Positions 898 to 30,345 of a stretch of 64,000 nucleotides of DNA are shown in pieces. Each line of letters opens with the position of its first letter. Position 1 is the stretch's first letter. The translations under genes and the position numbers were made by a program. Location: NCBI GenBank assembly GCA_965203455.1, contig CBDBCV010000015.1:219359-283358 (forward strand), read 5' to 3'. The notes below the pieces were generated by a model. It ran no database searches. It was not told the DNA's origin and worked only from the letters and a program-made list of their open reading frames with translations. The stretch comes from Alphaproteobacteria bacterium. GTDB taxonomy: Bacteria; Pseudomonadota; Alphaproteobacteria; MPNO01.

Positions 898-2758
898 GTG
901 TGTCCTGAAGCACCGCCATGAAAGGAGGTGCGCAACTGCAAGAGAGATGAGGGTAGGCCCCTCGGGGTCGACGATCAGGCGTCGGTCTCAAACCACCACG
1001 AGCTGCTGTCGTAAAGAGCGATGGTGGTGAGCGTCGTGGAAACGGCGGGACGACGATCTCGTCAGGTGAGGTCCGGGGAGACGAGCGAAAGCGAACCGCC
1101 GATGAACTTCCGAAAGCGTATGGTCGATGTCAGAACCGGGGGTGGTGGTCACTCCGGGACAAGCATGGGCGGAGTCCTGGAGTCCGGCCCACGCGGCATC
1201 CGGCTCGAAGGCGGCGTGAACCCGGAACAGGCTTTCTTGCGGAACAGGAGAACCTGTCGTCCCGATGCCAAGGGAGACGGCCAACCGGGCAGCCCCCGGA
1301 AGGCTCAGAGTACCGATGCGGGGCACAGGGGCAGAACAGCCCGTAGTAGGGATGAAGGCGCTGTAATGGCGCTGGACCGAAGGGGCTGTGGTGTTCAGCC
1401 GCTGCCGTCGGCCAACTGGTGACAGGAGGAGCCGGATGACAGGGGCAAAGCCGTTCCCGATAGCAAAGAGGGAAGTCTGGGAAGCCTTCAAGCATGTGAA
1501 GGCAAACCGGGGAGCGGCTGGAGTAGATGGGCAGACGGTCGAGAGTCTGGAGGAACGGCTTGGTCCGGAACTCTACAAGCTCTGGAATCGCATGTCCTCA
1601 GGCAGCTATATGCCGCCTCCGGTTCGCAGGGTGAACATCCCCAAGGAGGGCGGCGGGAAGCGCCCGTTGGGCATACCGACGGTCACGGACCGCATCGCTC
1701 AGGAGGTTGTTCGCCGACATCTGGAGCCCTTGTTGGAACCGATTTTCCATGAGGACTCATACGGATATCGGCCGAAGCGATCCGCCATTGACGCCATCCG
1801 GACAGCGCGTCGGCGATGCTGGCGCTACGACTGGGTGCTGGACATGGACATCAAGGGGTTCTTCGACAACATCGACCACGAGTTGCTGCTGAAGGCCGTT
1901 CGTCACCATACGGACTGCCGGTGGGTGCTGCTCTATGTCGAGCGCTGGTTGAAGGCTCCCGTGATCGAGGAGGACGGCACCGTTGTCGCACGGGACAGGG
2001 GCACGCCACAGGGCGGGGTAATTTCGCCAGTATTGTCCAACCTGTTCCTGCACTATGCGTTCGATCAATGGATGAAAAGGTCGATGCCGCATGTTCCGTT
2101 CGAACGGTATGCGGACGATATAATCTGCCATTGTCGAACGGAGGAGGCGGCAAAGACCCTCTGGCGGCGGGTTGCGGACCGATTGGCCGAGTGCGGCCTG
2201 GAGGTCCATCCGCAGAAGACCAAGGTGGTCTACTGCAAGGATACCAACCGCAAGGCGGACTACCCGACGGTCGCGTTCGACTTCCTGGGCTACCGTTTCC
2301 AGCCAAGGTTCGCGGCGTGGCGCGGCGGGTTGTTCGGGGTCTCGTTCCTTCCGGCTGCCAGCCCGACTGCGCTCAAGGCGTTTCGGCGCCGCGTGCGACA
2401 GTGGCGTTTGCAACGGCGTAGCGACAAGGCACTGCTTGACCTTGCCCGCATGTTTCATCGCGAAATTGCAGGGTGGATCGGCTACTTCGGCGCATTCTAC
2501 AAGTCGGCGCTCTATCCGACCCTTCGTCTGATAGACGCCCACTTGCAGCGATGGGCAATGCGGAAGTTCAAACGCTTCCGACAACGACCGCGTCAGGCTC
2601 GTCTCTGGCTTGCCAGAATCGCGAAAGCGGAGCCGTGGCGGTTCGCCCATTGGACCCTTGTGCACGGGCAGGGCCGGACGCTGGGAGCCGTATGAGCTGA
2701 GAGGTTCACGTACGGTTCTGGGAGCGCGTGGGGGTGAGATTCCCCCGCGCGACTCGCT
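898..2758 (+). mobile_element. Group II intron (about 1861 bp) with intron-encoded RT/maturase, inserted in IS66 tnpC; 3' boundary approximate
   Basis: Begins GTGTG immediately after exon sequence GATCACC. The 1861-bp stretch recurs in reverse orientation at 28485..30345 in a different IS66 copy (encoded protein identical). Encodes an RT/maturase ORF in the domain IV position. The last shared bases are ...GCGACTCGCTTG. Confidence 0.8.
1388..2695 (+). CDS. ltrA-like: Group II intron reverse transcriptase/maturase (IEP); start may be the internal Met at 1436
   Basis: RT motifs: GIPTVTDRIAQEV (RT1/2), palm motifs FDNIDH and YADD, and a maturase X domain (GWIGYFGAFYKS). 435-aa ORF identical to 28549..29856(-). 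Confidence 0.9.
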   Translation: MVFSRCRRPTGDRRSRMTGAKPFPIAKREVWEAFKHVKANRGAAGVDGQTVESLEERLGPELYKLWNRMSSGSYMPPPVRRVNIPKEGGGKRPLGIPTVTDRIAQEVVRRHLEPLLEPIFHEDSYGYRPKRSAIDAIRTARRRCWRYDWVLDMDIKGFFDNIDHELLLKAVRHHTDCRWVLLYVERWLKAPVIEEDGTVVARDRGTPQGGVISPVLSNLFLHYAFDQWMKRSMPHVPFERYADDIICHCRTEEAAKTLWRRVADRLAECGLEVHPQKTKVVYCKDTNRKADYPTVAFDFLGYRFQPRFAAWRGGLFGVSFLPAASPTALKAFRRRVRQWRLQRRSDKALLDLARMFHREIAGWIGYFGAFYKSALYPTLRLIDAHLQRWAMRKFKRFRQRPRQARLWLARIAKAEPWRFAHWTLVHGQGRTLGAV

Positions 2759-2791
2759 TGATTCGCAGAGAAAATACGCCACAAAGAGTTT

Positions 2792-3115
2792 TTGCCTGAA
2801 TTTGTTCAATCGGCGCTGGTTAGTTTAGTTGGAAGCAAGGAGTACTTCGATAGAGATGCTGTGGTTCAAATCATTCGAGAATTGCGACGAAATTCAGGGA
2901 TATATCTGGGACGAACAGCTTTCGATGTTGCGCAAAATTTGACCGAACGAACGGATGCATTGGAAATCAGGGAATATTTTGATCGCTCTAACGATTGGGA
3001 ACGAAGAAGGATAATTCAACTTATGAAGAGTGCGTTACCGGAACAGGAATACCGGGCATGGAGACGTGCCATAAGAACATATATTGCGAAGGATCCTTTT
3101 GCACGAGCGATCTGA
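2792..3115 (+). CDS. Hypothetical 107-aa protein in a low-GC (about 43%) island directly upstream of a HigA-like antitoxin; possible toxin partner
   Basis: Clean ORF in an AT-rich block (about 2760..3270) that contrasts sharply with the 68% GC surroundings. TATAAT-like box at about 3122. No recognisable family from sequence alone. Confidence 0.45.
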   Translation: MPEFVQSALVSLVGSKEYFDRDAVVQIIRELRRNSGIYLGRTAFDVAQNLTERTDALEIREYFDRSNDWERRRIIQLMKSALPEQEYRAWRRAIRTYIAKDPFARAI

Positions 3116-3273
3116 TAGGATGTATAATATTGGCGTTATAACACTTTGTGGAACGACTCTTGACGGTCGTGCGCCGGCGCCGACCAACCAGTCAGGTGAT
3201 TACCGTCTCAGAACAGACTAGTAACGGCGACAATACAGCGTTATGGAATGACCCGGCAGGAGGATTCACCGCC

Positions 3274-3567
3274 ATGACCCGCCTCGACCCCGTCCACCCC
3301 GGCGAAATCCTCAAGCACGAGTTCATGGAGCCGCTCGGTCTCTCCGCCACCGCGCTCGCGGCGGCGATCGGGGTGACGCCGGCGCGGATCGGCGAGATCG
3401 TGCGAGGGCGGCGCGGAATCACGGCGGAGAGCGCGCTGCGGCTGGCGCGCTATTTCGGCACCGATGCGCGGAGCTGGATGAACCTCCGGGACCGCTACGC
3501 GCTGGCGGTCGCCGAGCGGGAGCAGGGCGCCGCGATCGATGCGATCCGGCCGCGGGCGGCGGGGTAG
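3274..3567 (+). CDS. higA: HigA-family antitoxin (XRE-type HTH)
   Basis: MTRLDPVHPGEILKHEFMEPLGLSATALAAAIGVTPARIGEIVRGRRGITAESALRLARYFGTDARSWMNLRDRY is the canonical HigA/VapI signature. The ORF-track start at 3148 is an upstream extension. Confidence 0.75.
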   Translation: MTRLDPVHPGEILKHEFMEPLGLSATALAAAIGVTPARIGEIVRGRRGITAESALRLARYFGTDARSWMNLRDRYALAVAEREQGAAIDAIRPRAAG

Positions 3568-3576
3568 GCGGGGAAC

Positions 3577-3640
3577 CGTCCCTCGATACGGCGTGTAGCC
3601 TGTCCCGAGCGAAGCCGAGGGGCGCCTGCTCGGGATGAGG
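3577..3640. repeat. Partial copy of palindromic repeat family B (CCGTCCCTCGATACGGCG...CTCGGGATGAGGG)
   Basis: Same sequence motif as the full palindromic copy at 15508..15610. Confidence 0.5.
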
Positions 3641-3701
3641 GTGGAGCAACTGCCCCCTCCCGTTCGCGGGAGGGGTTGGGGGAGGGCGGTCGAAAAATGC
3701 C

Positions 3702-4565
3702 CTACCGCGCGCGTCTCAGCGCCGTCTGGGTGAAGTCGCCGAGATCGAGGTCGGTGCCGAACTTGTAGTCCTTCCAGTTCAGCACGGTGCTCTTTCCCGT
3801 CAGGTGGTTGGTCATCGATATGGTGCCGGCCCGCCAGAAGCGGTCGAGATATTTCCTGTAGCCCTCCACCGTCATCGTCTTGAGATGCGCGTTGCGGCGG
3901 TCGAAATACTGGACCTGGATGTTGCGCAGCTCCTCGCGGTCGAGCCAGACGAGCTGGCGGGAGTATCCCGAATCCTTGTTCTTCGGCACGCGCTCCAGGA
4001 CGAAGCACCGGAGCTTGCCGCAGGCCTCCTCGCGCACGAAGCGGTGGGTGTATTTCCCGACCTCGACGGCGCCCATGTCCTCGTAGGAGAACTCGCTCCC
4101 CATGAAGGAGCCAGACTGCTTCGACGAGCTGATGCGCTTGACCCGCTTGAGCGCCGGCAGATAGAGCCACTGGTCGTCCGGCCCGTCCTTGTGGGCGTGG
4201 ACCAGGAACCCGGTCCCCTTGACGTTGCGCGGCCGGTCGAAGACGAAGACGGTCCGGTCGCCGTCGTTCTCGACCTCGATGACCCTGAGGCGGAGCTCGC
4301 GCTTGCTCTCCTGCCCCCGCTTGTTGCGGAGCGTCATCGTCAGGTTCGCGGTGAAATTGCCGAAACCCTTGTCGCTCTGGCGGGCCTCGGTGGCGATCCT
4401 GAGCCCGCGCTCCCCGGCGCTCTCGGCCGCGCCGGCGGCGGGCGGCTCGGCCGCCAGGGCGAGAATGGCGAGACAGACGCCCGAAAGCGTCAGCGTCCTG
4501 CTTGGGTGAGAAATGCGGGTCACCGTTTCCTCCTGTCTCAGGCTACCGGGTCCGTTCGATTTCAC
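3702..4565 (-). CDS. LolA-like outer-membrane lipoprotein-sorting family protein, secreted; likely partner of the adjacent RND exporter; start uncertain
   Basis: Signal-peptide-like LTLSGVCLAILALAA, then the conserved LolA-like/DUF1329-type core (YLPALKRVKRISSSKQSGSFMGSEFSYEDM...). Sits immediately downstream of the MMPL/RND gene on the same strand. Confidence 0.6.
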   Translation of the reverse strand: MKSNGPGSLRQEETVTRISHPSRTLTLSGVCLAILALAAEPPAAGAAESAGERGLRIATEARQSDKGFGNFTANLTMTLRNKRGQESKRELRLRVIEVENDGDRTVFVFDRPRNVKGTGFLVHAHKDGPDDQWLYLPALKRVKRISSSKQSGSFMGSEFSYEDMGAVEVGKYTHRFVREEACGKLRCFVLERVPKNKDSGYSRQLVWLDREELRNIQVQYFDRRNAHLKTMTVEGYRKYLDRFWRAGTISMTNHLTGKSTVLNWKDYKFGTDLDLGDFTQTALRRAR

Positions 4566-6881: not shown

Positions 6882-6957
6882 CGCGGCTTGCCGAATATTC
6901 GACCGGTTCCGACTATAGCATCCGCCGCCCGCCCCGGCACGGACAATCCCCCCGCCG

Positions 6958-8658: not shown

Positions 8659-8706
8659 GACTCGAAGCGACGCGCCGGTAGCGAAGCCGCGCGGACCCGG
8701 TATGCG

Positions 8707-11295
8707 CTACGCCACGACATTGAGGATCCGGTTCGGGACGAAGACGATCTTGCGGATGGGGCGCCCGCCGAGCGCCGCCGTCACCGTCGGCAGCGCGAGC
8801 GCGGCGGCCTCGGCCTCCTGCTGGTCGGCGTCGCGTTCGAGCTCGACGGTGCCGCGGGTCTTGCCCATCACCTGCACCGCGACGGTGACGATCTCGTCAC
8901 GGGCGAGCGCGGCGTCGGCCTCCGGCCAGGGCGCGTCGGCGAGCAGCGTCTCGTGGCCGAGGAACCGCCACAGGCTCTCGCCGAGATGGGGCACCATCGG
9001 CCCGGCCAGAAGCGCCATCGTCTCGCAGGCCTCGCGCCGCACCCAGGCGGCTTCCTCGCCGTCCGCGTCGAAATCCGACAGCAGGTTGACCAGGCTGTGG
9101 ACGCGCGCGACCGCGCGGTTGAAGCGGAACCCCTCCAGGTCGCCGGTCACCCCGCCGATCGCCTTGTGCACCTCGCGGCGGATCGCGGTCAGCGCGGCGT
9201 CGCCCGCGACGCCCGCCGGCATCGGCGCCCCCGGCGGCGCGAGCGGGCGGCCCGGGTCGGTCGCCAGCCGCCACATCCGGTTGACGAAGCGCCACGCGCC
9301 GGCGACGCCCGCCTCGGTCCATTCGAGGTCGCGGTCGGGCGGCGAGTCGGACAGCATGAACCAGCGCGCGGTGTCGGCGCCGTAGGTCTCCATGATGTCC
9401 TCGGGGTCTACCACGTTGCGGCGCGACTTGCTCATCTTCTCCGACCGGCCGACGATCAGTTGCTCGCCGGTGGCGGCGCGGACCGGCGCCTTGCCGGGGC
9501 CCTCGGCGACCTCGACCGGCGGCACCCATTCGCCGTCCCCGGTGCGGTAGGTCTCGTGGCACACCATGCCCTGGGTGAACAGCCCGGCGAAGGGCTCGTC
9601 CAGCGCCAGCTCGTTATGGTCGGTCATCGCGCGGGTGAAGAAGCGCGCGTAGAGCAAATGCAGGATCGCGTGCTCCACCCCGCCGATATACTGATCGACC
9701 GGCAGCCAGTACTCGCCCTCCTCCTCGTCCACCGGCGCGTCGGCGCGGGGCGAGCAGAAGCGCGCGAAATACCACGACGAATCGACGAAGGTGTCGAGCG
9801 TCGAGGTCTCGCGCTCCGCCGCGCCGCCGCAGGCGGGGCAGGGCGCGTGCTTCCAGGTCGGGTGGCGGTCGAGCGGGTTGCCCGGCGTCTCGAAGTCGAT
9901 GTCGTCGGGCAGCTCCACCGGCAGTTCCGCGCGCGGCACCGGGACGATGCCGCAATCGGCGCAGTGGACCACCGGGATCGGGCAGCCCCAGTAGCGCTGG
10001 CGCGACACGCCCCAGTCGCGCAGCCGGTAGTTGACCTCGCGCCGGCCGCTGCCGTCGGCCTCGGCGCGGCGCGCGATCGCCTCCTTCGCCTCCGCGACCG
10101 TCATGCCGTCGATGAAGTCCGAGTTGGCGAGCCTGCCGTCGCCGAGATACGCTTCCCCGTCGACCGCGAAGGCGGCGGGATCCACGTCCTCCGGCACCAC
10201 GACGGGGAGCACCGGCAGGCCGTACTTGCGCGCGAAGTCGAGGTCGCGCTGGTCGTGCGCCGGGCAGCCGAAGATGGCGCCTGTGCCGTATTCCATCAGG
10301 ATGAAGTTGGCGACATAGACCGGCAACGTCCATTCCGGGCGGAACGGGTGCCGCACCCGGAGCCCGGTATCGACGCCGCGCTTCTCGGCCTGCTCGATGG
10401 CCGCCTCGCTGGTGCCGGTGCGGCGGCACTCCTCGACGAAGCCGGCGATCTCCGGGTCGTCCCCGGCGATCTCCGCGGCGAGCGGGTGCTCGGGCGAGAC
10501 CGCGCAGAAGCTCGACCCGAAGATCGTGTCGTGCCGCGTGGTGTAGATGTCGAGCCCGCCCTCGCGCCCGACCATCGGGAAGGTCAGGCGGAGGCCTTCC
10601 GAGCGGCCGATCCAGTTCTCCTGCATCGTCCGCACCTTGTCGGGCCAGCGCTCCAGCCCGGCGAGGGCGGCGCGGAGGTCCTCGGCGTAGTCGGTGATCC
10701 GCAGGAACCATTGCGGCATCTCGCGCTTCTCGACCGGGGCGCCGGAGCGCCAGCCGCAGCCGTCGATCACCTGCTCGTTGGCGAGCACCGTGCGGTCGAC
10801 CGGGTCCCAGTTGACCCAGCCGCTGGCGCGGTACAAGAGCCCGCTCTCCAGGAAGTCGAGGAACATCGCCTGCTGGTGGCGGTAATAGCCGGGATGGCAG
10901 GTCGCGAGCTCGCGGCTCCAGTCGATCGAGAGCCCCATCGAGCGCAGCTGACCCCGCATCGCGGCGATGTTCTCGTAGGTCCACGAGCCGGGGTGGACGC
11001 CCTGCTCCATCGCCGCGTTCTCGGCCGGCATGCCGAACGCGTCCCAGCCCATCGGGTGCAGCACGTTGAAGCCGCGCGCCCGCTTGTAGCGCGCGACCAC
11101 ATCGCCCATCGTGTAGTTCCTGACATGCCCCATGTGGATGCGCCCCGACGGGTAGGGGAACATCTCCAGCACGTAGTATTTGGGGCGCGCGGGGTCCGGC
11201 GCGACGACGAAGGTGCCGCGCTCCTCCCAGACCGCCTGCCAGCTTGCCTCGTTCTCCTTGGCGTCGTAACGCCGGGGCGCGGTGCCGTCGGTCAT
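8707..11295 (-). CDS. leuS: Leucyl-tRNA synthetase
   Basis: 862 aa. HMGH (class I HIGH) motif: [20 protein letters not shown] motif: [13 protein letters not shown]. Full-length alignment to LeuS. Confidence 0.95.
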
Positions 11296-11319
11296 GTCGT
11301 GGCGGGCGGCGCGGATCCG

Positions 11320-11877: not shown

Positions 11878-12232
11878 GACCTGCTCCCGAGGCGCCCTTC
11901 CACCGCCTCCGATATGGCGGCCCGGGCATCGTCCTGCAAGCGGCGCACTATAGATAAGCCGCCGTTCCGGGGCAACTTCGGATGGGGGCGGGGGCGGGTT
12001 TCAATTGGAGCTTATATCGATTACTTGACAGGAGCGGGGCTGACAGGGGTCGTGCCCCCAGGCGTGGTGTGGTGTAGGAGCAGGAGCCAGCATCGGTAGC
12101 TGTGGGTAAGTGGCCCGCCGCCGCGACCGTGTGGCGTCTGGCGGCGGCGGGCCACTTATCCATAGCGGATGGCCATCGCGGTGCCGGTTAGGGTTGGGCT
12201 TCTACAGTCCATCCGACCGGAGGAGTACCACG

Positions 12233-13435
12233 ATGACCACCAAGGACATGATGACCCTGCAGGCGCTTTTGGAGAAGAGTTCGGACGCCGATCTGCTTCG
12301 CGAGATGATCGGGTTCACGGCCGAGCGTTTGATGGCGCTTGAGGTGGAGGGCCTTGCGGGAGCCGCACACGGCGAGCGTTCGCCGGACCGGCTCACCCAT
12401 CGCAACGGCTACCGGGACCGGGTCTGGGAGACGCGCGCGGGCACGGTGGAGCTGAAGATCCCGAAGCTGCGCAAGGGGAGCTACTTCCCGGGCTTCCTGG
12501 AGCCGCGTCGCATGGCGGAGAAGGCGCTGACGGCGGTGATCCAGGAGGCCTACATCAAGGGCGTGTCGACCCGCTCGGTGGACGACCTGGTGCAGGCCAT
12601 GGGCATGTCGGGCATCTCGAAGAGCCAGGTGTCGCGGCTGTGCGGTGAGATCGACGGCAAGATCCGCGACTTCCTCGACCGCCCGCTGGAGGGCGACTGG
12701 CCGTATCTGTGGCTGGACGCGACCTATGTGAAGATGCGCGAGGCCGGGCGCGTCGTCTCGGTCGCGGTCACGATCGCGGTGGCGGTCAACGACCAGGGCC
12801 GCCGCGAGGTGCTCGGCATGGCGATCGGCGCGTCCGAGGCCGAGACCTTCTGGACCTCCTTCCTGCGCTCCCTGGCCCGCCGCGGCCTGCGCGGCGTCAA
12901 GCTGGTCGTCTCCGATGACCACAAGGGCCTGAAGGCGGCTGCAACGCGCGTCCTCGGCGCCACATGGCAGCGCTGCCGCGTCCACTTCATGCGCACCCTG
13001 CTCGCCCATGCCGGCAAGCAGGGCCGGCGCGTCGTGTCCGCCTTCGTCACCACCGCCTTCGCCCAGGAGGATGCAGACAGCGCCTCCGCCCAGTGGCGCC
13101 AGGTCGCCGACCAGCTCAGGGCCAAGGCGCCGAAGCTCGCCGCTCTCATGGACGAGGCCGAGCACGACGTTCTCGCCTACATGACCTTCCCGGCCGCGCA
13201 TCGCCCCAAGCTGCACTCGACAAACCCGCTCGAACGACTCCATGGCGAGATCAAGCGGCGTACCAACACCGTCGGCATCTTCCCCAACGAGGACGCCATA
13301 ACACGGCTGATCGGCGCCATCCTGCTCGAGCAGAACGACGAATGGGCCGTCCAGAGGGCCAGATACATGACGCTGGAATCAATCGCTCCCGTGAGCGACA
13401 ATGCAACCGTCAAGCTGCCCGCCGTGGCAGCCTGA
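12233..13435 (+). CDS. IS256-family (mutator-type) transposase
   Basis: 400 aa from [16 protein letters not shown]...; conserved DDE and mutator signature ([11 protein letters not shown]...[11 protein letters not shown]...[13 protein letters not shown]...[41 protein letters not shown]). Confidence 0.9.
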
Positions 13436-17608: not shown

Positions 17609-17609
17609 G

Positions 17610-17950: not shown

Positions 17951-19561
<1,611 letters not shown>

Positions 19562-19674
19562 TCTCGTCCTCCCGGGGTTGGGGGATGCGCATGGGCCCGA
19601 CGGCGCCGGCGGGGCGGATGGCGGGGGCCCGTATCACGCGGCAAACTAGTGTGTGCGTTGCGCCGGTTCAACCG

Positions 19675-21638
19675 GGAGAAATGTGCGCTGTGGTGATTTT
19701 TGGCTGTCGCCGGTTCGATTTTGGCGGTTGAATATCGTCCGGCCCGCTTCCCCACCGGGCAGGATACGGGCTTCCGGGGCCTGACAAATACGATTACCGG
19801 AAGATTGTCTGGCGTGCGGGCGTGGCTTCCCCTCTGCCGTCGGGCGGCGGGATCGGGCAGGATTGTCGGGAGGCAGACGAGCGGTCAGCCGGTGTCGAGA
19901 TACGGCACGGCGCCGACCAGGGAGCGCATGCGCTCGGGGCGGCCGGCGCGGGCCTGGGCGAGAGCCATCGCCATCATCACCGCCAGGGCGAGGCCGAGGC
20001 GGGTCTTCATCTTGGCGCGGCCTCGGATGTAGTGGGTCTCGAAGTTGAAGCTGTTGTCGAGGCGGCTGTTGATCCGCTCCATGGCCGAGCGGCGGTTGTA
20101 GCCGCGCCGCCATGACGGACTGCCCCAGGGCGTGGGGGTGAAGATGCGCCGGTCGTGGCTGTCGAGGTCGATGCGCAGGATGCGGCCATAGTCTCCGGGC
20201 TTGACCCCGCCGGCCCGGTGGCAGGCCCGGCTGCCGGCGCAGGCGAAGCCGAAGGCGGCTGCCGGGCAGCGGTATTTGAGCGTGCCGCAGCGGCCCCGAT
20301 CAGCCTCGAACCCCTGAAACGCCATAGCGCGGACCTCGCCGGTCCCGGGACAGACGCAGGACACCCGGCCGCGCTCGTCGTGAACGATGACATCGGCGCG
20401 GTCGGGGAACAGCGGCCGCGTGATCGGCTGCGCCGGATCGTATCTCGGCTCCTGCTTCTCCACCCGCCACATCAGCCGTGTATCGATCAGCGGGCGGGCG
20501 GTCCACCGGTCCCACAGCCGCGCCTTCAGGCGGGCATCGTCGAGACCGCGGTCGGCGCTGAAGTCGGCGCAGCGCCCGGCGATCTCCGGCGCCCTTGCGA
20601 ACAGCTCCTCCAGCATCCCGGACAGCACCTTGGGTTCCGAGGCCGAAGCGCGCGTCACCTCGAAGGCCACCGGAACCTCGTAATCGGTGTCGGCGATCAG
20701 GTGCAGCCCGTAGCCGAACCACGACTTCACCTTCTTCCACACCGCGCCGGTCCTGGCGTCCACCCCGCCCGTCTCGTGCTTGCCCCAGTCGGCGTCGGGG
20801 TCCGAGGTCTTGTCCTCGTCCTTGCCGACCCGGCCCGTCGAGTGGCTCGCGATCGCCTTGCCGTCGTAGCCGAGATGACGCCCGAAGTCCGGCAACGCGG
20901 CGAACAGCGCGGCGCGCAGGCTCTCGATCATGGCGGACACCAGCCCCTGCTCGTCCTCAAGCTGCACAACACGCCCCAGAAACCGCGAGAAGTTCCAGTG
21001 GCTCGGCGCCGTCGAACGAACCCGCGCCGGGCGCGTTACCGCATGCCCGTCGTGAAGCACCGTCACCGGCCCGCTCTGATACGGCAGAGGGTCGAACCCG
21101 CAGATCTCCAGCAACGCCGGGTTGCGCCCCAGCTCCCGCAACAGCGACTGCATCGAGGCGTGTTGCAACACCACCCCCGCGATCAGCGCCCGCCACATCG
21201 CCCGCACCGGGTAGTCGTTACGGCCCCGACCGCGACACACTTCAAGCGCCGTCACGATCTCCTCGTCGGGAAGCACCGCCAGAACCAGGCGCAGCCGTTC
21301 AAGGTCCGGCAGGACTTCGACATCGCGCCACGAAAAGGGTAGCTTCGCCGCCGTCGCCATCGCTGTTCTCCCGACCAGGGGTGGTGGTGGAACAAGGGCC
21401 CCAGGGCCCGATGGCGACACCTTCTATCTCATGCGCACGATCAGGGCGCGCGAGGCCGCCGCAGGAAAACCTCGCTGCCAAGACGCCGCGACCAGCGGCG
21501 TGGGGTGAAAATCGCCAAAACGACCGCCGCAGCGAAACTGAAACCCCGGATATCAACGACCACCACGGGGTATCAAAAATCTCGCACCTCCGTGAACGCC
21601 TTGTAAATCAACCCGTCCCCGACAGCGCAAACGCCTCA
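19675..21638 (-). mobile_element. IS1182/IS5-superfamily insertion sequence, copy 1 (1964 bp), inserted in the pckA-chvI intergenic region
   Basis: Bounded by the same ends as the identical copy at 47695..49657: inside-out TGAGGCGTTTGCGCTGTCGGGGACGG ... CACAGCGCACATTTCTC, with imperfect IRs GAGnnnTnTGCGCTGT. The flanks diverge exactly at these points in the two copies. Confidence 0.75.
19885..21360 (-). CDS. IS1182/IS5-type DDE transposase
   Basis: 491 aa from MATAAKLPFSWRD...; DDE_Tnp_1-type C-terminus (NRRSAMERINSRLDNSFNFETHYIRG). Identical protein at 47973..49448(+). Confidence 0.85.
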   Translation of the reverse strand: MATAAKLPFSWRDVEVLPDLERLRLVLAVLPDEEIVTALEVCRGRGRNDYPVRAMWRALIAGVVLQHASMQSLLRELGRNPALLEICGFDPLPYQSGPVTVLHDGHAVTRPARVRSTAPSHWNFSRFLGRVVQLEDEQGLVSAMIESLRAALFAALPDFGRHLGYDGKAIASHSTGRVGKDEDKTSDPDADWGKHETGGVDARTGAVWKKVKSWFGYGLHLIADTDYEVPVAFEVTRASASEPKVLSGMLEELFARAPEIAGRCADFSADRGLDDARLKARLWDRWTARPLIDTRLMWRVEKQEPRYDPAQPITRPLFPDRADVIVHDERGRVSCVCPGTGEVRAMAFQGFEADRGRCGTLKYRCPAAAFGFACAGSRACHRAGGVKPGDYGRILRIDLDSHDRRIFTPTPWGSPSWRRGYNRRSAMERINSRLDNSFNFETHYIRGRAKMKTRLGLALAVMMAMALAQARAGRPERMRSLVGAVPYLDTG

Positions 21639-21751
21639 CCGGCGCCGCCGCGCGCCCGCGAGGTGCCGAGGAGAGCGGTTCGCCGGGCTTGCCGCGGCCG
21701 CGCGAGACACCATCTAACAGGTCGCGGCCGCAAGCAGGGACGGGAGGCGTC

Positions 21752-24090: not shown

Positions 24091-24093
24091 GCG

Positions 24094-25406: not shown

Positions 25407-25418
25407 CAGGATAGGGCG

Positions 25419-25832
25419 ATGGGCATGATCGGCATGGTGCTGGTGACGCACGGCAACCTCGCGAAGGAGCTGGTCGCCGCGCTCGAACACGTGGTCGGGC
25501 CGCAGGAACGGACCGAGACCGTCTGCATCGGCCCCAACGACGACGCCGAGGCGCGGCGCCGGGACATCGCCGACAGCGTCGCGCGGGCCGACGGCGGCAG
25601 CGGGGTGATCCTGCTGACCGACATGTTCGGCGGCACGCCGTCCAACCTCGCGATCTCGCTGATGAAGGACGGCCATGTCGAGGTCATCGCCGGCGTCAAC
25701 CTGCCGATGCTGGTCAAGCTCTCCAGCGTGCGCGGCCGCGACGGCCTGGAAGAGGCGGTCGCCGCCGCGCAGGAGGCGGGCCGCAAGTACATCAGCGTCG
25801 CGTCCCGGCTGCTCGGCGACAAGGAAGAATGA
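25419..25832 (+). CDS. manX: PTS EIIA component, mannose/fructose family (EIIA-Ntr cluster type)
   Basis: MIGMVLVTHGNLAKEL with the phosphorylatable His (THG), and DMFGGTP. Confidence 0.85.
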   Translation: MGMIGMVLVTHGNLAKELVAALEHVVGPQERTETVCIGPNDDAEARRRDIADSVARADGGSGVILLTDMFGGTPSNLAISLMKDGHVEVIAGVNLPMLVKLSSVRGRDGLEEAVAAAQEAGRKYISVASRLLGDKEE

Positions 25833-26113
25833 CCGCCGGACGGGGCGTCGCCCGCCGCGAGGTCGAGGTGGTGAACGAGCGCGGCCTGCACGCCCGCGTC
25901 GCCGCCAGGATCGCCGCCGCCGCCGAGCGGTTCGATGCCGACATCCGCTTCGCGTGCAAGGGAGAGACGGTCTCGGCGCTCTCGATCATGGGCCTCCTGA
26001 TGCTCGCGGCGACGCGGGGGACCCGGCTGGAGGTTTCCGCGTCCGGCAGCGACGCCGCGGCGGCGGTCGAGGCGTTGGCCGCGATGTTCGCCAACGGCTT
26101 CGAGGAGGGGTGA
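25829..26113 (+). CDS. ptsH: Phosphocarrier protein HPr (NPr)
   Basis: 94 aa. His-15 context RGLHARVAA. Regulatory-Ser region replaced, as is typical for alphaproteobacterial HPr. Confidence 0.85.
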   Translation: MTAGRGVARREVEVVNERGLHARVAARIAAAAERFDADIRFACKGETVSALSIMGLLMLAATRGTRLEVSASGSDAAAAVEALAAMFANGFEEG

Positions 26114-26130
26114 GGGAGTCCGGTGCCCGC

Positions 26131-26243
26131 CGTCATGCCCGGACTTGTTCCGGGCATCCACGTGGGGTTGCCGACTCTCGTGTCCCCGGTTCACCCGCCC
26201 TGCCGCGGGGCGTGGATGCCCGGAACAAGTCCGGGCATGACGA
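26131..26243. repeat. 113-bp REP family A composite palindrome
   Basis: Same terminal arms as 8546..8658 and 14151..14263. Confidence 0.85.
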
Positions 26244-26294
26244 AATAGAGGGGCCGCCGACGCGAAGACCTCTGCGGTTTGAAGAAAAACAGAT

Positions 26295-26558
26295 ATGCTT
26301 CAGGCCATGAAAAAACGACTCGCCACCTATCCGCTGCGCTTGCCGGTGTCCCTGAAGGAGGCCGTCGCCGAGATGGCCAGACGCGACGGGACGAGCATCA
26401 ACCAGTTCGTGACGACGGCGGTCGCCGAGAAGCTGTCGGCAATGAGAACGGCCGAGTTCTTCTCCGAACGCCGGGCGTCGGCGGATATCAGCAACGCCCG
26501 GCGCATCCTGTTCAGGGACGGGGGCAGGAAGCCGGAGTCCGAAGACCGCTTGCCTTGA
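26295..26558 (+). CDS. HicB-family/ribbon-helix-helix antitoxin-like protein
   Basis: MKKRLATYPLRLPVSLKEAVAEMARRDGTSINQFVTTAVAEKLSAMRTAEFF matches the HicB-type antitoxin C-terminal DNA-binding pattern. No toxin gene recognised nearby. Confidence 0.5.
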   Translation: MLQAMKKRLATYPLRLPVSLKEAVAEMARRDGTSINQFVTTAVAEKLSAMRTAEFFSERRASADISNARRILFRDGGRKPESEDRLP

Positions 26559-26758
26559 TCTCAAAGGCAGCGTCTCCATTCAGGCTGCGGTCGCCGCCTC
26601 GCACCGCCGGCTATTCCACAGCCCCGACATCGTCACCCCCGCGTGGCGGCGCCGGCACCGGTAGAGTCGGAAAAGGGGCGGGGCGGGGACGATGTCGCGA
26701 ATCCGCAATATTCTTTCAAGCCCGCCAAAGAACAGGCAGAACAACGGCTGGAGGAAAG

Positions 26759-27148
26759 TCAGTCGACGCGTTCATGGGCAATGGCGGCCGCGAATTCCGT
26801 GTTGCCGATGTTCTGGAGACGCCACGTCACGTGGGGGGTGTCCCCGAACCGGAAAACGCCGCTTCTCACACCCCCAACCATGGCAGGCGGAATTTCGAAT
26901 TTCGCGGTATCCATCGACAGTCCCGCGCCGACAGCCTTGATCAACGCCTCCTTCATCGTCCACAGGCTGTAGAACAGATCCACCTTCCGATTTCCGCTCG
27001 CCGTTTCGAGGGCATCCCGTTCCCCCGGTGCGAACAGTAACCGGATATAGCCGTCCAGATCGCGTTCCGCCGTGCGGTCCTCCACATCCACGCCGATGCG
27101 GCCCTCCCGCGCCAGGGCGATCAGGCCGTGCCGGCCGCTATGGCTCAC
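26759..27148 (-). CDS. 4'-phosphopantetheinyl transferase (Sfp/EntD-type), probably N-terminally truncated
   Basis: C-terminal PPTase motifs GVDVE...FSLWTMKEALIKAVG. Only 129 aa. The upstream region is disrupted about 280 bp before the IS66 copy B terminus. Confidence 0.65.
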   Translation of the reverse strand: MSHSGRHGLIALAREGRIGVDVEDRTAERDLDGYIRLLFAPGERDALETASGNRKVDLFYSLWTMKEALIKAVGAGLSMDTAKFEIPPAMVGGVRSGVFRFGDTPHVTWRLQNIGNTEFAAAIAHERVD

Positions 27149-27501
27149 GTTGAAGGGGACGGAGGCCGCGACGCCCCCGACGCGGGCGAACGGCTTGCCG
27201 AGTTTCGACGCGCCGAACGAGAGGTCCGCGTTCCGGCAGCCGAGTCTGCCGCAGAGCAGCGACCGGAGCGCGGCGCGGCAGAGGGTAAATTCGCGGCGAG
27301 GCCGGGGATACAGGAAGCGGCGCCGGCGCGACCGTTCGGCTCCGTCGAGCCAATCGAGCGCCTCTGCCTCGCGGGAGGCGTCGACCGTCAGATCGACATA
27401 AACGACCGTGGCATCGTCCCGTTTCGTGGTAAGCGGTGTTCAGACCCCATATCGGGTCTGGATTGACAGCGTTTTCTTGAGGGTGGGCTTGGGCGCCGCG
27501 A

Positions 27502-28410
27502 TCAGCCGGTGTCGACGTCGGGCTTGGGATCAAAGTTCCACGGCAGCAGCTCGTGGATCCTCGACTGTGGGTGACCCGCGGCGATCTTCTCGAGCGCGCT
27601 CCTGAGCCAGGCGTGCGGCTCGACGCCGTTCATCTTGCAGGTCTCGATCAGCGAGGCGATCCGGGCCCACGCGGCGGCGCCCTCGTCGTGGCCCGCGAAC
27701 AGGGCGTTCTTTGCCGTGAGCTTCAGCGGGCGGATGCGGTTCTCGACGAAGTTCGAGTCGATCTCGACGCGCCCGTCGCGGAGGAACACCAGCAACCCGT
27801 CCCACCGGTTGGCGATGTAGGTCAGCTTCTCGCCCAGGCGCGAGCGCGGCGAGACGCGCGAGCGCTGCTCGTCGAGCCACACTCCGAAGGCGTTCACCAG
27901 CGGCGCGGACTCCGTCCAGCGCACCGCCTGGCGCGTCGCCGGCGCCGCGCCCCGGATCCTGTCCTCGATCGCGTAGAGCCGCGCGATCCGCTCCAGACCG
28001 GCCTTCGCGACCGGCGAGGCGTTCGAATCGAAGATGTCCTTCAGCGCGCGCCTGGCGTGCGCCCAGCAGGCCGAGAGCGTCAGCGCTCCCCCCGGCCGGT
28101 CCGCACGGCGCAGCGGGTTGTAGCCGCTATAGCCGTCGATCTGCGCGGTCCCCGAGAACCCTTCCAGCAGCGTCTCCGCATGCTTGCCGCCGCGGCCCGG
28201 CGCGTAGGCATAGACCACCCCAGGCGGGTCCGCCCCCGACCACGGCCGCTCGTCGCGCACCATCGTCCACATGTAGCCCGTCCTGGTCCGGCCCCGGCCC
28301 GGGTCGAGAACCCGGATCGGCGTCTCGTCCACCCCGAGCTTCGCCGACCGCTTGAGGTCCGCCGCCAGGCAGTCCACCAGGGGGCGAAGATGGAACGACG
28401 CCTTGCCCAC
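27502..28410 (-). pseudogene. tnpC: IS66 TnpC C-terminal part (different lineage from D/E), frameshifted about 12 codons downstream of the intron site
   Basis: DDE region (...KLTAKNALFAGHDEGAAAWARIASLIETCKMNGVEPHAWL...ELLPWNFDP). Upstream, PLYRQSQIYA is in another frame relative to RRLGLELPRATLADWVGKASF (1-nt indel versus the PFYRQSEAYRREGIDLDR of copy D). Confidence 0.7.
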
Positions 28411-28484
28411 CCAGTCGGCCAGCGTCGCGCGGGGCAGCTCAAGCCCCAGACGCCGCGTAGATCTGCGATTGACGGTAGAGCGGC

Positions 28485-30345
28485 AAGCGAGTCGCGCGGG
28501 GGAATCTCACCCCCACGCGCTCCCAGAACCGTACGTGAACCTCTCAGCTCATACGGCTCCCAGCGTCCGGCCCTGCCCGTGCACAAGGGTCCAATGGGCG
28601 AACCGCCACGGCTCCGCTTTCGCGATTCTGGCAAGCCAGAGACGAGCCTGACGCGGTCGTTGTCGGAAGCGTTTGAACTTCCGCATTGCCCATCGCTGCA
28701 AGTGGGCGTCTATCAGACGAAGGGTCGGATAGAGCGCCGACTTGTAGAATGCGCCGAAGTAGCCGATCCACCCTGCAATTTCGCGATGAAACATGCGGGC
28801 AAGGTCAAGCAGTGCCTTGTCGCTACGCCGTTGCAAACGCCACTGTCGCACGCGGCGCCGAAACGCCTTGAGCGCAGTCGGGCTGGCAGCCGGAAGGAAC
28901 GAGACCCCGAACAACCCGCCGCGCCACGCCGCGAACCTTGGCTGGAAACGGTAGCCCAGGAAGTCGAACGCGACCGTCGGGTAGTCCGCCTTGCGGTTGG
29001 TATCCTTGCAGTAGACCACCTTGGTCTTCTGCGGATGGACCTCCAGGCCGCACTCGGCCAATCGGTCCGCAACCCGCCGCCAGAGGGTCTTTGCCGCCTC
29101 CTCCGTTCGACAATGGCAGATTATATCGTCCGCATACCGTTCGAACGGAACATGCGGCATCGACCTTTTCATCCATTGATCGAACGCATAGTGCAGGAAC
29201 AGGTTGGACAATACTGGCGAAATTACCCCGCCCTGTGGCGTGCCCCTGTCCCGTGCGACAACGGTGCCGTCCTCCTCGATCACGGGAGCCTTCAACCAGC
29301 GCTCGACATAGAGCAGCACCCACCGGCAGTCCGTATGGTGACGAACGGCCTTCAGCAGCAACTCGTGGTCGATGTTGTCGAAGAACCCCTTGATGTCCAT
29401 GTCCAGCACCCAGTCGTAGCGCCAGCATCGCCGACGCGCTGTCCGGATGGCGTCAATGGCGGATCGCTTCGGCCGATATCCGTATGAGTCCTCATGGAAA
29501 ATCGGTTCCAACAAGGGCTCCAGATGTCGGCGAACAACCTCCTGAGCGATGCGGTCCGTGACCGTCGGTATGCCCAACGGGCGCTTCCCGCCGCCCTCCT
29601 TGGGGATGTTCACCCTGCGAACCGGAGGCGGCATATAGCTGCCTGAGGACATGCGATTCCAGAGCTTGTAGAGTTCCGGACCAAGCCGTTCCTCCAGACT
29701 CTCGACCGTCTGCCCATCTACTCCAGCCGCTCCCCGGTTTGCCTTCACATGCTTGAAGGCTTCCCAGACTTCCCTCTTTGCTATCGGGAACGGCTTTGCC
29801 CCTGTCATCCGGCTCCTCCTGTCACCAGTTGGCCGACGGCAGCGGCTGAACACCACAGCCCCTTCGGTCCAGCGCCATTACAGCGCCTTCATCCCTACTA
29901 CGGGCTGTTCTGCCCCTGTGCCCCGCATCGGTACTCTGAGCCTTCCGGGGGCTGCCCGGTTGGCCGTCTCCCTTGGCATCGGGACGACAGGTTCTCCTGT
30001 TCCGCAAGAAAGCCTGTTCCGGGTTCACGCCGCCTTCGAGCCGGATGCCGCGTGGGCCGGACTCCAGGACTCCGCCCATGCTTGTCCCGGAGTGACCACC
30101 ACCCCCGGTTCTGACATCGACCATACGCTTTCGGAAGTTCATCGGCGGTTCGCTTTCGCTCGTCTCCCCGGACCTCACCTGACGAGATCGTCGTCCCGCC
30201 GTTTCCACGACGCTCACCACCATCGCTCTTTACGACAGCAGCTCGTGGTGGTTTGAGACCGACGCCTGATCGTCGACCCCGAGGGGCCTACCCTCATCTC
30301 TCTTGCAGTTGCGCACCTCCTTTCATGGCGGTGCTTCAGGACACA
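28485..30345 (-). mobile_element. Group II intron (second copy, reverse orientation) inserted in IS66 tnpC at the identical codon
   Basis: The exon/intron junction GCCGACCACC|GTGTG is at 30345/30346. Intron-less allele in copies D and E: GCCGACCACC|AACCGTTCTACCG. Same 1861-bp length as 898..2758. Confidence 0.8.
28549..29856 (-). CDS. ltrA-like: Group II intron reverse transcriptase/maturase (identical to 1388..2695)
   Basis: 435-aa protein identical to the other intron copy. Confidence 0.9.
   Translation of the reverse strand: MVFSRCRRPTGDRRSRMTGAKPFPIAKREVWEAFKHVKANRGAAGVDGQTVESLEERLGPELYKLWNRMSSGSYMPPPVRRVNIPKEGGGKRPLGIPTVTDRIAQEVVRRHLEPLLEPIFHEDSYGYRPKRSAIDAIRTARRRCWRYDWVLDMDIKGFFDNIDHELLLKAVRHHTDCRWVLLYVERWLKAPVIEEDGTVVARDRGTPQGGVISPVLSNLFLHYAFDQWMKRSMPHVPFERYADDIICHCRTEEAAKTLWRRVADRLAECGLEVHPQKTKVVYCKDTNRKADYPTVAFDFLGYRFQPRFAAWRGGLFGVSFLPAASPTALKAFRRRVRQWRLQRRSDKALLDLARMFHREIAGWIGYFGAFYKSALYPTLRLIDAHLQRWAMRKFKRFRQRPRQARLWLARIAKAEPWRFAHWTLVHGQGRTLGAV

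What the first reader, a model, noticed from the sequence alone, without database searches (positions are those of the whole stretch)
898..30345. Same group II intron homed into the identical codon of tnpC in two different IS66 lineages, with the empty site preserved in two further copies
An 1861-bp group II intron with an identical 435-aa RT/maturase is inserted right after the conserved ...(C/A)DH codon of IS66 TnpC in both copy A (898..2758, +) and copy B (28485..30345, -). The two host IS66 elements differ in their tnpB and tnpC protein sequences. Exon 1 reads GATCACC|GTGTG in copy A and GCCGACCACC|GTGTG in copy B. Copies D and E, which share copy B's 5' half exactly, show the uninterrupted site GCCGACCACC|AACCGTTCTACCG. 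So the homing site (the IBS1 region ending ...CACC, in the ADH|QPFYRQ motif) can be read directly by filled-site versus empty-site comparison in one window. This would be a group II intron specialised for the catalytic-region codon of an IS66 transposase, using the IS as a vehicle for spread. Splicing would be needed to restore transposase function, which suggests the intron could regulate IS66 activity.
Basis: partly seen in the sequence, partly recalled or inferred. Interest (0 to 1): 0.75.

Follow-up and report, generated by a model that had tools for sequence, protein, structure and literature searches.

The report
Group II intron in IS66 transposase genes
Two identical copies of a mobile self-splicing intron sit at the conserved IS66 transposase site that this already catalogued intron lineage normally targets, but in this window both host genes have since been broken by swaps of the DNA downstream of the intron.

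Summary
The intron is real. It is an endonuclease-less bacterial class D group II intron. It is 80.9% nt identical to Pa.de.I1 of Paracoccus denitrificans, which a 2013 compilation already lists with host gene 'Transposase IS66'.

About 30 related introns from plasmids, genomes and metagenomes sit at the same tnpC position, ..K(Y/F)xDH|LPLYRQ. EBS1 (GGUGGUC) and EBS2 (GCGUAU) pair with the 5' exon, and compensatory changes in relatives support both pairings. Site specialisation is therefore confirmed, but it is not new.

- Copy A is followed by the 3' end of a DRT8-type defence reverse transcriptase gene (42% GC), not by tnpC.
- Copy B joins the left half of a D/E-type IS66 (100% identical to D and E up to the splice site) to the right half of a third IS66 lineage (46% aa identity). 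It has no target-site duplication and carries a frameshift.

Recombination between dispersed intron copies after homing is the best explanation. Misassembly is the main rival. D and E are intact, empty, valid targets. Verdict: new member of a known kind, with modest interest.

The parts
1..258 (+). 3' part of the tnpB gene of an A-type IS66 element, cut by the window start
   Evidence: Pfam TnpB_IS66 E=1.6e-27. It is 49% identical to the D-type TnpB.
333..897 (+). A-type IS66 tnpC 5' exon: 188 codons plus 1 nt, ending ..SKYCDH
   Evidence: Pfam LZ_Tnp_IS66 and zf-IS66. It is 40% identical to the D-type N-half. The junction is read.
898..2758 (+). Group II intron copy A: class D, 1861 nt, starting GUGUG and ending ..GACUCGCU
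   Evidence: RF01999 at 949-1067 and RF00029 (DV-DVI) at 2683-2758. 100% identical to copy B. 80.9% identical over its full length to Pa.de.I1.
1116..1121 (+). EBS2 (GCGUAU), which pairs with exon positions -14..-9. The copy B equivalent is 30123-30128 (-).
   Evidence: It lies in an unpaired stretch of the consensus fold. Compensatory changes occur in L022 (CAGAAU/AUUCUG) and L002 (GCAUAU/AUAUGC).
1144..1150 (+). EBS1 (GGUGGUC), which pairs with exon positions -7..-1. The copy B equivalent is 30094-30100 (-).
   Evidence: It lies in the terminal loop of the CCGGG/CCGGG hairpin. Compensatory changes occur in L022/L023 (GUGAGUC with GACUCGC/GACUUGC) and L008 (A with -1 U).
1436..2695 (+). Intron-encoded RT/maturase: 419 aa from ATG 1436, or 435 aa if counted from GTG 1388. 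The copy B equivalent is 28549-29808 (-).
   Evidence: Pfam finds RVT_1 (5.7e-44) and GIIM (1.3e-14) and no endonuclease domain. YADD is present and a Shine-Dalgarno sequence GGAGGAG lies upstream. It is 79% identical to the Pa.de.I1 IEP.
2759..3115 (+). Non-cognate 3' flank of copy A: the 3'-terminal ~105 codons of a DRT8-type defence reverse transcriptase gene, 5'-truncated exactly at the intron junction, 42% GC
   Evidence: PADLOC Drt8 E=1.2e-12, profile positions 389-483 of 493. Homologues P0121-P0124 lie at the 3' end of RVT_1 genes. There is no TnpC homology.
27429..28485 (-). Right part of a third (X-type) IS66: tnpC C-terminal half (3' exon TGCCGCTCTACCG.., LPLYRQ..) and the right inverted repeat ending at 27429. 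An extra G in the GGGG run at 28444-28447 causes a frameshift.
   Evidence: Pfam DDE_Tnp_IS66 and DDE_Tnp_IS66_C. 46% aa identity to D/E, and 95% to database protein P0001, whose N-half is only 48% identical to the D-type and 41% to the A-type. The IR is read.
28486..30346 (-). Group II intron copy B, identical to copy A
30347..31978 (-). Left part of a D/E-type IS66: IRL, tnpA, tnpB and the tnpC N-half ending ..KFADH. It is 100% identical to D and E up to the splice site and out to the exact IRL tip.
   Evidence: Repeat I4. The flanks CTTCGCAA (left) and CACGAAAC (beyond 27429) do not form a target-site duplication.
36950..39594 (+). Intact IS66 copy D (2645 bp; tnpA, tnpB and a 545-aa tnpC) with the empty homing site between 38581 and 38582. 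TSD TGTCGGTC.
40087..42731 (-). Intact IS66 copy E, identical to D, with the empty homing site between 41100 and 41099. TSD GGGGAAGC.
32232..32820 (-). Partial D/E-type IS66 copy F (first 589 nt), interrupted by another IS66-family end at 32231
   Evidence: Repeat I7.

Best explanation
The element is a mobile bacterial class D (IIB3-type) group II intron whose protein has reverse transcriptase and maturase domains but no DNA endonuclease.

Its lineage retrohomes into one conserved site of IS66-family tnpC, between the first and second base of the Leu codon in ..K(Y/F)xDH|LPLYRQ. The site is read mainly by RNA-DNA pairing: EBS1 GGUGGUC pairs with -7..-1, and EBS2 GCGUAU pairs with -14..-9, with a one-nucleotide linker at -8. 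Because that stretch is conserved across IS66 lineages, one intron can enter several of them.

In this genome it entered at least an A-type and a D/E-type IS66. The 5' junctions show this directly.

Later, the DNA downstream of each intron copy was exchanged. Copy A is now followed by the tail of a drt8 defence gene. Copy B is followed by the right half of a third IS66 lineage. The most likely cause is homologous recombination between dispersed, identical 1.86-kb intron copies, at least two of which lie outside the window. For copy A this would include a copy that had inserted ectopically into drt8.

Both host elements are now dead chimeras. D and E are intact, transposition-derived, still-empty targets.

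Shown: the identity, class and site of the intron, the EBS/IBS pairings, the non-cognate flanks, and the status of D and E.
Inferred: the recombination mechanism and the order of events.
For: Intron identity:
- Rfam hits.
- Pfam finds RVT_1 and GIIM only.
- 80.9% nt and 79% IEP identity to Pa.de.I1. Table S1 of PMC3552965 lists Pa.de.I1 as class D with host 'Transposase IS66', at the same coordinates as my hit.

Lineage-wide site:
- All 29 visible 5' junctions are at ..DH| of IS66 tnpC. They comprise the 2 window copies, 14 plasmid or genome loci and 13 metagenome loci.
- 33 of 37 3' junctions are (L)PLYRQ-type.

Pairings with compensatory changes.

Chimerism of copy B:
- 1632 nt are 100% identical to D/E, ending exactly at the splice site and at the IRL tip.
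- The 3' half is 46% aa identical to D/E.
- Proteins 76-95% identical to that 3' half have N-halves only 46-65% identical to the D-type.
- There is no TSD.
- As a control, L005 shows what a cognate filled IS66 looks like: 97% and 92% to the same database protein.
- L006 shows the genuine filled D/E-type element: both halves are ~90% identical, with 3' exon AACCGTTCTACCG.

Copy A:
- The flank is a Drt8 C-terminus with homology starting at the junction.

D and E:
- Each has its own 8-bp TSD.

Published context:
- Recombination between intron copies as a source of genome instability is an accepted idea (PMC5894124, citing Leclercq and Cordaux).
Against: - No reciprocal junction is present in the window (X-type 5' half|intron|D-type 3' half, drt8 5' part|intron, or intron|A-type 3' half). 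The exchanges are therefore inferred from one product each.
- Simple recombination predicts swapped 5' flanks as often as swapped 3' flanks. Across all loci I saw 0 of 29 foreign 5' flanks against 4 of 37 foreign 3' flanks. The numbers are small, roughly p = 0.1.
- Three of the four foreign 3' flanks keep the first 2-4 nt of the canonical exon TGCC (window A TG, L105 TGC, L104 TGCC). Recombination inside the intron does not explain this by itself. It requires either ectopic sites selected for a 3'-exon match or a different joining mechanism.
- The window may come from a metagenome assembly, so misjoins at identical repeats cannot be excluded without reads.
Confidence: 0.68

Rival explanations
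1. The intron homed independently into two intact IS66 lineages, sits in functional tnpC genes that need splicing to be expressed, and D/E are the exact empty alleles of copy B.
For: Both 5' junctions are at the canonical site. Copy B's 5' exon is identical to D/E. The intron looks functional: the ORF is intact, YADD is present, and DV/DVI are recognisable.
Against: Copy A has no tnpC 3' exon; a drt8 fragment follows instead. Copy B's 3' exon is from another lineage and is frameshifted, and the composite has no TSD. Neither gene can yield a normal TnpC after splicing.
Confidence: 0.05
2. Assembly artefact. The genome carries several identical intron copies, each in a cognate IS66, and the assembler joined the wrong flanks across the 1.86-kb repeat. 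The extra G in a GGGG run would be a homopolymer sequencing error.
For: The closest genome hits are long-read metagenome-assembled genomes, and the exact IEP is not in the indexed collection. Both anomalies coincide exactly with a perfect repeat. The frameshift lies in a homopolymer.
Against: The same window carries longer perfect repeats assembled in plausible, TSD-flanked contexts: 2645-bp IS66 x2, a 1972-bp IS x2 and a 1.34-kb IS x3. The drt8 gene is truncated exactly at the junction, and its 5' part would still have to abut some intron copy. Similar foreign 3' flanks occur in independent metagenome contigs L104, L105 and L095.
Confidence: 0.14
3. Aberrant endonuclease-independent retrohoming. 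After reverse splicing into the IS66 site, cDNA synthesis was primed by a stray DNA 3' end that paired with only the first 2-4 nt of the 3' exon. This fused the intron's 3' end directly to foreign DNA in one step.
For: Foreign flanks are seen only on the 3' side (4 of 37, against 0 of 29 on the 5' side). Three of them retain TG, TGC or TGCC of the canonical exon. Class D introns lack an endonuclease and are reported to use nascent strands at replication forks as primers (PMC4615759; PMC5894124).
Against: The numbers are small. The retained bases are equally explained by 3'-exon recognition at ectopic sites. Copy B has a complete, canonical 3' exon of another IS66, which fits ordinary recombination better. 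I know of no experimental precedent.
Confidence: 0.1
4. One segmental duplication that included the flanking IS sequence.
For: The two copies are 100% identical. The repeat finder extends the match 62 nt into the 5' exons (I3).
Against: That 62-nt extension is merely conserved tnpC coding sequence with many mismatches. Upstream, the proteins are only 40-49% identical. The 3' flanks are unrelated.
Confidence: 0.01

Closest known systems
Pa.de.I1 (Paracoccus denitrificans PD1222 plasmid 1, CP000491/NC_008688 19065-20924; bacterial class D group II intron)
   Same: Identical insertion site in IS66 tnpC (..YADH|LPLYRQ), almost the same length (1860 vs 1861 nt), and an RT-X protein with no endonuclease domain. 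Identity is 80.9% nt over the whole intron and 79% for the IEP. EBS1 and EBS2 are the same.
   Different: About 19% sequence divergence, below the >95% identity at which the intron database gives introns the same name. The host genus and host IS66 lineages differ. In Paracoccus both exons are present, whereas here both copies have foreign 3' flanks.
Sr.md.I1 (Sinorhizobium medicae WSM419) and RmInt1/RmInt2 (S. meliloti), class D introns resident in IS elements
   Same: They are class D, endonuclease-less and IIB-like, with EBS1/2/3 recognition and a one- or two-nucleotide linker. They live inside insertion sequences. Sr.md.I1 lies in an ORF annotated as transposase IS66 and retrohomes experimentally with a lagging-strand bias. 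The hypothesis that the intron controls the spread of its host IS has been published (PMC4615759, PMC4238363, PMC3035460).
   Different: RmInt1 targets ISRm2011-2 and RmInt2 targets the IRs of ISRm17. The published Sr.md.I1 target features (IBS3 = C paired with EBS3 G; conserved T-15 and G-16) do not match this site (+1 T or A; A at -15 and -16). It is therefore probably a different position in IS66, but I could not read the Sr.md.I1 site itself.
IS66 family insertion sequences (tnpA-tnpB-tnpC, GTAAGCG.. inverted repeats, 8-bp TSD)
   Same: D and E show all of these features. The A-type, D-type and X-type fragments have the expected Pfam domains.
   Different: The copy A and copy B hosts are truncated or chimeric and are no longer complete IS66 elements.

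Membership tests
Group II intron | Conserved 5' end GUGYG, plus a domain V / domain VI module with a bulged branch-point A near the 3' end | tested here: met
   The 5' end is GUGUG. RF00029 covers DV-DVI at 56.8 bits against a gathering score of 40. The bulged A lies in ..CGCGCG-A-CUCGCU, 7 nt from the 3' end. The 3' end is ..CU rather than the commoner AY, as in Pa.de.I1.
Group II intron | Domain I-IV ribozyme architecture with the ORF in domain IV | tested here: met
   RF01999 scores 112.9 bits against a gathering score of 36. The consensus fold of domain I from 11 relatives places EBS1 in a hairpin loop. The full-length alignment to Pa.de.I1 covers an intron that the published table lists as having domains I-VI. 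I did not model all six domains independently.
Group II intron | Exon-binding sites that pair with the 5' exon (EBS1-IBS1, EBS2-IBS2) | tested here: met
   EBS1 makes 7 of 7 pairs with both window exons. EBS2 makes 5 of 6 pairs with the copy B exon and 4 of 6 with the copy A exon. Relatives L022/L023, L002 and L008 show compensatory changes.
Group II intron | EBS3-IBS3 (IIB-type) pairing with the first 3'-exon nucleotide | tested here: inconclusive
   The +1 base is T in most loci, but A (L006), C (L005) and G (L008) occur beside nearly identical domain I sequences. No covarying partner could be assigned.
Group II intron | Self-splicing and retrohoming activity | not testable with these tools
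   The only indirect signs are an intact ORF with YADD, identical copies, and occupancy of the same site in several IS66 lineages.
Bacterial class D (IIB3) group II introns | RT-X intron-encoded protein without a D/En region | tested here: met
   Pfam finds RVT_1 at residues 84-304 and GIIM at 329-402 and nothing else. The protein ends about 30 residues after GIIM.
Bacterial class D (IIB3) group II introns | Phylogenetic placement of the IEP (X domain plus class-specific C-terminal tail) within class D | tested here: met
   This rests on close homology only: 79% IEP identity to Pa.de.I1, which Table S1 of PMC3552965 classifies as class D. I built no tree and made no explicit comparison of the C-tail signature.
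IS66 family insertion sequence (the host) | tnpA, tnpB and DDE tnpC genes; terminal inverted repeats starting GTAAGCG; 8-bp target-site duplication | tested here: met
   All features are met for D and E. For the copy B composite the TSD test was run and not met (CTTCGCAA vs CACGAAAC). Copy A is cut by the window start on the left and has no right half.
DRT8 defence reverse transcriptase (flank of copy A) | Match to the Drt8 profile across the RT domain and C-terminal domain | tested here: inconclusive
   Only the C-terminal 105 residues are present (profile 389-483 of 493, E=1.2e-12). The full-length homologues in L108 and L110 match Drt8 at 4.6e-84 and 5.1e-93. It is a gene fragment, not a system.

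The most novel reading that the evidence does not exclude
The foreign 3' flanks may not come from ordinary recombination. They could be a direct by-product of endonuclease-independent retrohoming. In that case cDNA synthesis would be primed by a stray DNA end pairing with only the first 2-4 nt of the 3' exon. The intron would then itself fuse IS66 left halves to other DNA, here truncating a DRT8 anti-phage gene, and would act as an active generator of chromosomal rearrangements. A related, milder reading is that intron copies serve as portable homology that shuffles the DNA-binding and catalytic halves of different IS66 transposases, a bacterial form of exon shuffling.
Probability: 0.1. Interest if true: 0.6.

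Novelty: new member of a known kind. Interest (0 to 1): 0.3.

Why it matters
It adds one more member, with clean EBS/IBS covariation, to a class D intron lineage already catalogued as living in IS66 transposase genes. It also gives a clear natural example of what happens after such an intron spreads. Identical copies in different IS66 lineages become sites where flanking DNA is exchanged. The results here are dead chimeric insertion sequences and a truncated defence gene, next to core genes (leuS, pckA, chvI/chvG-like). This is useful for annotating IS66/intron composites and for judging repeat-mediated rearrangements in assemblies. It does not open a new question.

Tried and rejected
1. A single inversion between the two inverted intron copies, restoring a coherent A-type IS66 (A 5' half plus the 3' half now next to copy B). 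Rejected. Database TnpCs that are 76-95% identical to that 3' half have N-halves only 39-52% identical to the A-type. P0108, which is 70% identical to the A N-half, is only 62% identical to the 3' half.

2. Copy A's flank as a highly diverged tnpC. Rejected. No tblastn hit scored better than E = 0.3. The flank is a Drt8 C-terminus.

3. Widespread N/C mosaicism of natural IS66 TnpCs with a breakpoint at the intron site. Not seen. Identity profiles rise gradually at the zinc finger, with no step at the site.

4. Using a 419-aa S. meliloti IEP (65% identical) as RmInt1 for class assignment. Dropped. That intron occurs in only 12 plasmid records, so it is not the widespread RmInt1. Class was assigned through Pa.de.I1 instead.

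5. Exact-sequence look-ups of the IEP, the flank ORF and the LolA-like neighbour, to find the source genome or an uninterrupted drt8 locus. None is on record.

6. Reading the ancestral drt8 target from homologues. They are too divergent (60-73% aa) to say whether an IBS-like sequence preceded the breakpoint.

7. Locating EBS3. No covarying position was found.

8. Reading the Sr.md.I1 target sequence from the paper's supplement. It is not held as text.

9. Searching the window for the drt8 5' part or further tnpC fragments. None found.

Full report
**Observation**

The window holds two copies of an 1861-nt element, at 898-2758 (+) and 28486-30346 (-). They are 100% identical.

Both copies match Rfam group-II-D1D4-2 (RF01999, 112.9 bits) and the domain V/VI model RF00029 (56.8 bits). 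The internal ORF has Pfam RVT_1 and GIIM domains and nothing else, so there is no endonuclease domain. It carries YADD. It most likely starts at ATG 1436, behind a GGAGGAG Shine-Dalgarno sequence, which gives 419 aa rather than 435.

**What the intron is**

A megablast against plasmids found the whole 1861 nt aligned at 80.9% identity to Paracoccus denitrificans PD1222 plasmid 1, positions 19065-20924. The IEP is 79% identical. Those coordinates are exactly those of Pa.de.I1 in Table S1 of Toro and Martinez-Abarca 2013 (PMC3552965). There it is listed as class D, RT-X, domains I-VI, 1860 nt, host gene 'Transposase IS66'. The window intron is therefore a new member of a catalogued class D (IIB3) lineage.

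**Site specialisation**

I read the junctions of every relative I could fetch:
- four plasmid introns (Paracoccus, Bradyrhizobium septentrionale, Mycetohabitans, Burkholderia pseudomallei);
- the 3' junction of a Rhizobium etli intron;
- ten genome or MAG loci with IEP identity of 58-100%;
- twenty metagenome contigs that share the exact last 23 nt of the intron.

All 29 visible 5' junctions lie after ..K(Y/F)xDH plus one base of IS66 tnpC. Of 37 visible 3' junctions, 33 continue with (L)PLYRQ or PLHRQ.

More distant IEP relatives (54-68% identity) are not in IS66. Several of them sit right after the YADD-coding sequence of other RT genes.

The site corresponds to residue ~213 of the 545-aa TnpC. 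That is position ~20 of the Pfam DDE_Tnp_IS66 domain.

**Exon recognition**

In an alignment of domain I from the relatives, GGUGGUC (window 1144-1150) sits in the loop of a CCGGG/CCGGG hairpin. GCGUAU (1116-1121) sits in an unpaired stretch.

EBS1 pairs 7 of 7 with both window exons (GAUCACC, GACCACC). Relatives show compensatory changes:
- L022/L023 have GUGAGUC opposite GACUCGC/GACUUGC.
- L008 has an A opposite -1 U.

EBS2 pairs with -14..-9, leaving -8 as a linker. L022 has CAGAAU opposite AUUCUG, and L002 has GCAUAU opposite AUAUGC. The copy A exon has two mismatches in IBS2 and the D/E-type exon has one.

I could not assign EBS3. The +1 base is T, A, C or G beside almost identical domain I sequences.

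**The flanks are not cognate**

*Copy B.* The 1632 nt upstream (30347-31978) are 100% identical to D and E. The identity stops exactly at the splice site on one side and at the tip of the left inverted repeat on the other. The downstream exon (28485 to 27429) encodes a tnpC C-half only 46% identical to D/E.
- Database TnpCs that are 76-95% identical to this C-half have N-halves only 46-65% identical to the D-type and 39-52% to the A-type. The C-half therefore comes from a third lineage, which I call X.
- As a control, the filled IS66 in L005 matches a single database protein at 97% (N-half) and 92% (C-half).
- The composite has no target-site duplication (CTTCGCAA vs CACGAAAC). D and E each have a perfect 8-bp one (TGTCGGTC and GGGGAAGC).
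- An extra G in the GGGG run at 28444-28447 also frameshifts the C-half. This could be a homopolymer sequencing error.
- The genuine filled D/E-type element exists in a related MAG, L006. Both halves are ~90% identical to D, and the junction reads ..GATCACC|intron|AACCGTTCTACCG. D and E are therefore valid, still-empty targets.

*Copy A.* After the intron the sequence is TGATTCGCAGAG.. at 42% GC, in a 69% GC window. It has no TnpC homology.
- Its ORF (2792-3115, with homology starting at the junction itself) is the C-terminal ~105 residues of a DRT8-type defence reverse transcriptase (PADLOC Drt8, E=1.2e-12, profile positions 389-483 of 493).
- Homologues sit at the 3' end of RVT_1 genes that match Drt8 at 1e-84 to 1e-93.
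- The 5' three-quarters of that gene are not in the window.

Splicing of copy A would give a truncated TnpC (..DH-LIRRENTPQRVFA-stop). Splicing of copy B would give a frameshifted hybrid.

**Mechanism**

Copy B's left half is inherited at the DNA level right out to the IS terminus, which a transcript would not contain. Its right half starts with a complete canonical 3' exon. The exchange must therefore have happened within or at the intron. Homologous recombination between identical 1.86-kb intron copies resident in different IS66 elements explains this simply.

A single inversion between the two window copies does not restore coherent elements, because A-N and X-C are not cognate. At least two exchanges with copies outside the window are needed.

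For copy A, the same model requires an ectopic copy in drt8. Ectopic transposition is documented for RmInt1 (PMC5894124).

The 25.7-kb segment between the two inverted copies carries core genes: leuS, pckA, a chvI/chvG-like pair and rapZ. Such exchanges therefore rearrange the chromosome itself.

**Unexplained detail**

Among the four foreign 3' flanks, three keep the first 2, 3 or 4 nt of the canonical exon TGCC: window A, L105 and L104. L095 does not. No foreign 5' flank was seen in 29 junctions. L105 has a normal IS66 5' exon, like copy A.

This could reflect 3'-exon recognition at ectopic sites followed by recombination. It could also reflect microhomology joining at the 3' junction during endonuclease-independent retrohoming. 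The numbers are too small to decide.

**Caveat**

The closest genome hits are long-read MAGs, and the window's exact proteins are not indexed. Misjoining at a perfect repeat is possible. I rate it at about 0.14, for two reasons. Longer perfect repeats in the same window are assembled in TSD-consistent contexts. Independent contigs also show the same kind of foreign 3' flank.

**Comparison and novelty**

Class D introns living in insertion sequences are well described: RmInt1 in ISRm2011-2, RmInt2 in ISRm17, and Sr.md.I1 in an IS66 transposase ORF, with experimental retrohoming (PMC4615759). Pa.de.I1 is catalogued in IS66. The idea that inefficient splicing lets the intron restrain its host IS is published (PMC4238363, PMC3035460). 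So is the idea that recombination between intron copies destabilises genomes (PMC5894124).

The finding is therefore a new member of a known kind. The added value is threefold: the covariation-backed EBS/IBS map, the demonstration that the whole sub-lineage uses the DH|LPLYRQ site, and the evidence that both local copies have undergone flank exchange, one of them truncating a defence RT gene.

Noticed in passing
L021, L025, L032, L052, L061, L066 (5' junctions about 500 nt upstream of the IEP match): More distant relatives of the intron (IEP 55-62% identical) are inserted directly after ..(R)YADD-coding sequence, for example CGCTATGCGGACGATA|GTGCGCC. This appears to be a sister lineage that homes into the YADD motif of other reverse transcriptase genes.
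   Followed up: no
L022:3496-7165 (also L023, L024): The IS66-homing intron here is about 3.67 kb and contains a second group II intron of another Rfam type (RF02003, D1D4-4) at L022:5205-5340. It is a twintron.
   Followed up: partly
L005:1158-3947 and L006:5325-7939: In the related Alphaproteobacteria MAG, both near-identical intron copies are themselves interrupted by 2.6-2.8 kb insertions. The one in L006 lies within domain V and has IS21-like paired ORFs of 522 and 264 aa.
   Followed up: partly
window 2759-3115: This is the only low-GC island of the window (42% against 69%). It is the 3' fragment of a DRT8-type defence reverse transcriptase gene, followed by an HTH_3 (HigA-like) gene at 3148-3567.
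   Followed up: yes
L104, L105, L095 (metagenome contigs): Independent cases of the same intron lineage with a non-IS66 3' flank. L104 reads TGCC|ACATGG.. into what reads, by my own translation, as the antisense middle of a serine-recombinase-like ORF (not scanned against any family library). L105 reads TGC|ATGTAGTCC and has a normal IS66 5' exon. L095 reads AGCTCC...
   Followed up: partly
window 31979-32950: A nested pile of IS66-family ends, each starting GTAAGCG, at 32950, 32820 (partial D-type copy F, 589 nt), 32231 (another element) and 31978 (copy B). Successive IS66 elements appear to have inserted into each other's terminal few hundred bases.
   Followed up: partly
window 36950-42731: D and E are identical 2645-bp IS66 copies arranged tail to tail, 492 nt apart. 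Each has its own 8-bp target duplication (TGTCGGTC and GGGGAAGC), so they are two separate transposition events.
   Followed up: yes
window 19676-21647 and 47686-49657: A 1972-nt IS (510-aa DDE_Tnp_1/DUF772 transposase) is present twice in inverted orientation at 100% identity. The first copy sits between pckA and the chvI-like response regulator gene.
   Followed up: no
window 44067-45408, 54129-55472, 61413-62756; also 53925-54133: There are three identical copies of a 1.34-kb IS3-family element (rve integrase core), plus an extra ~205-nt copy of its end next to the second copy.
   Followed up: no
window 36130-37016: Three tandem ~296-nt repeats (100%, 86% and 68% identity) run up to and overlap the left end of IS66 copy D. 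They lie inside a long minus-strand ORF (34573-37512).
   Followed up: no
window 56947-60030 and 12110-13432: A TrwC-type relaxase/helicase (1028 aa) and an IS256-family (Transposase_mut) transposase. Part of the window looks like an integrated conjugative element or plasmid remnant beside core chromosomal genes (leuS 8707-11292, pckA 17951-19558).
   Followed up: no
window 28444-28447: An extra G in a GGGG run frameshifts the X-type tnpC C-half just 39 nt into the 3' exon. It may be a real pseudogenising mutation or a homopolymer sequencing error.
   Followed up: partly
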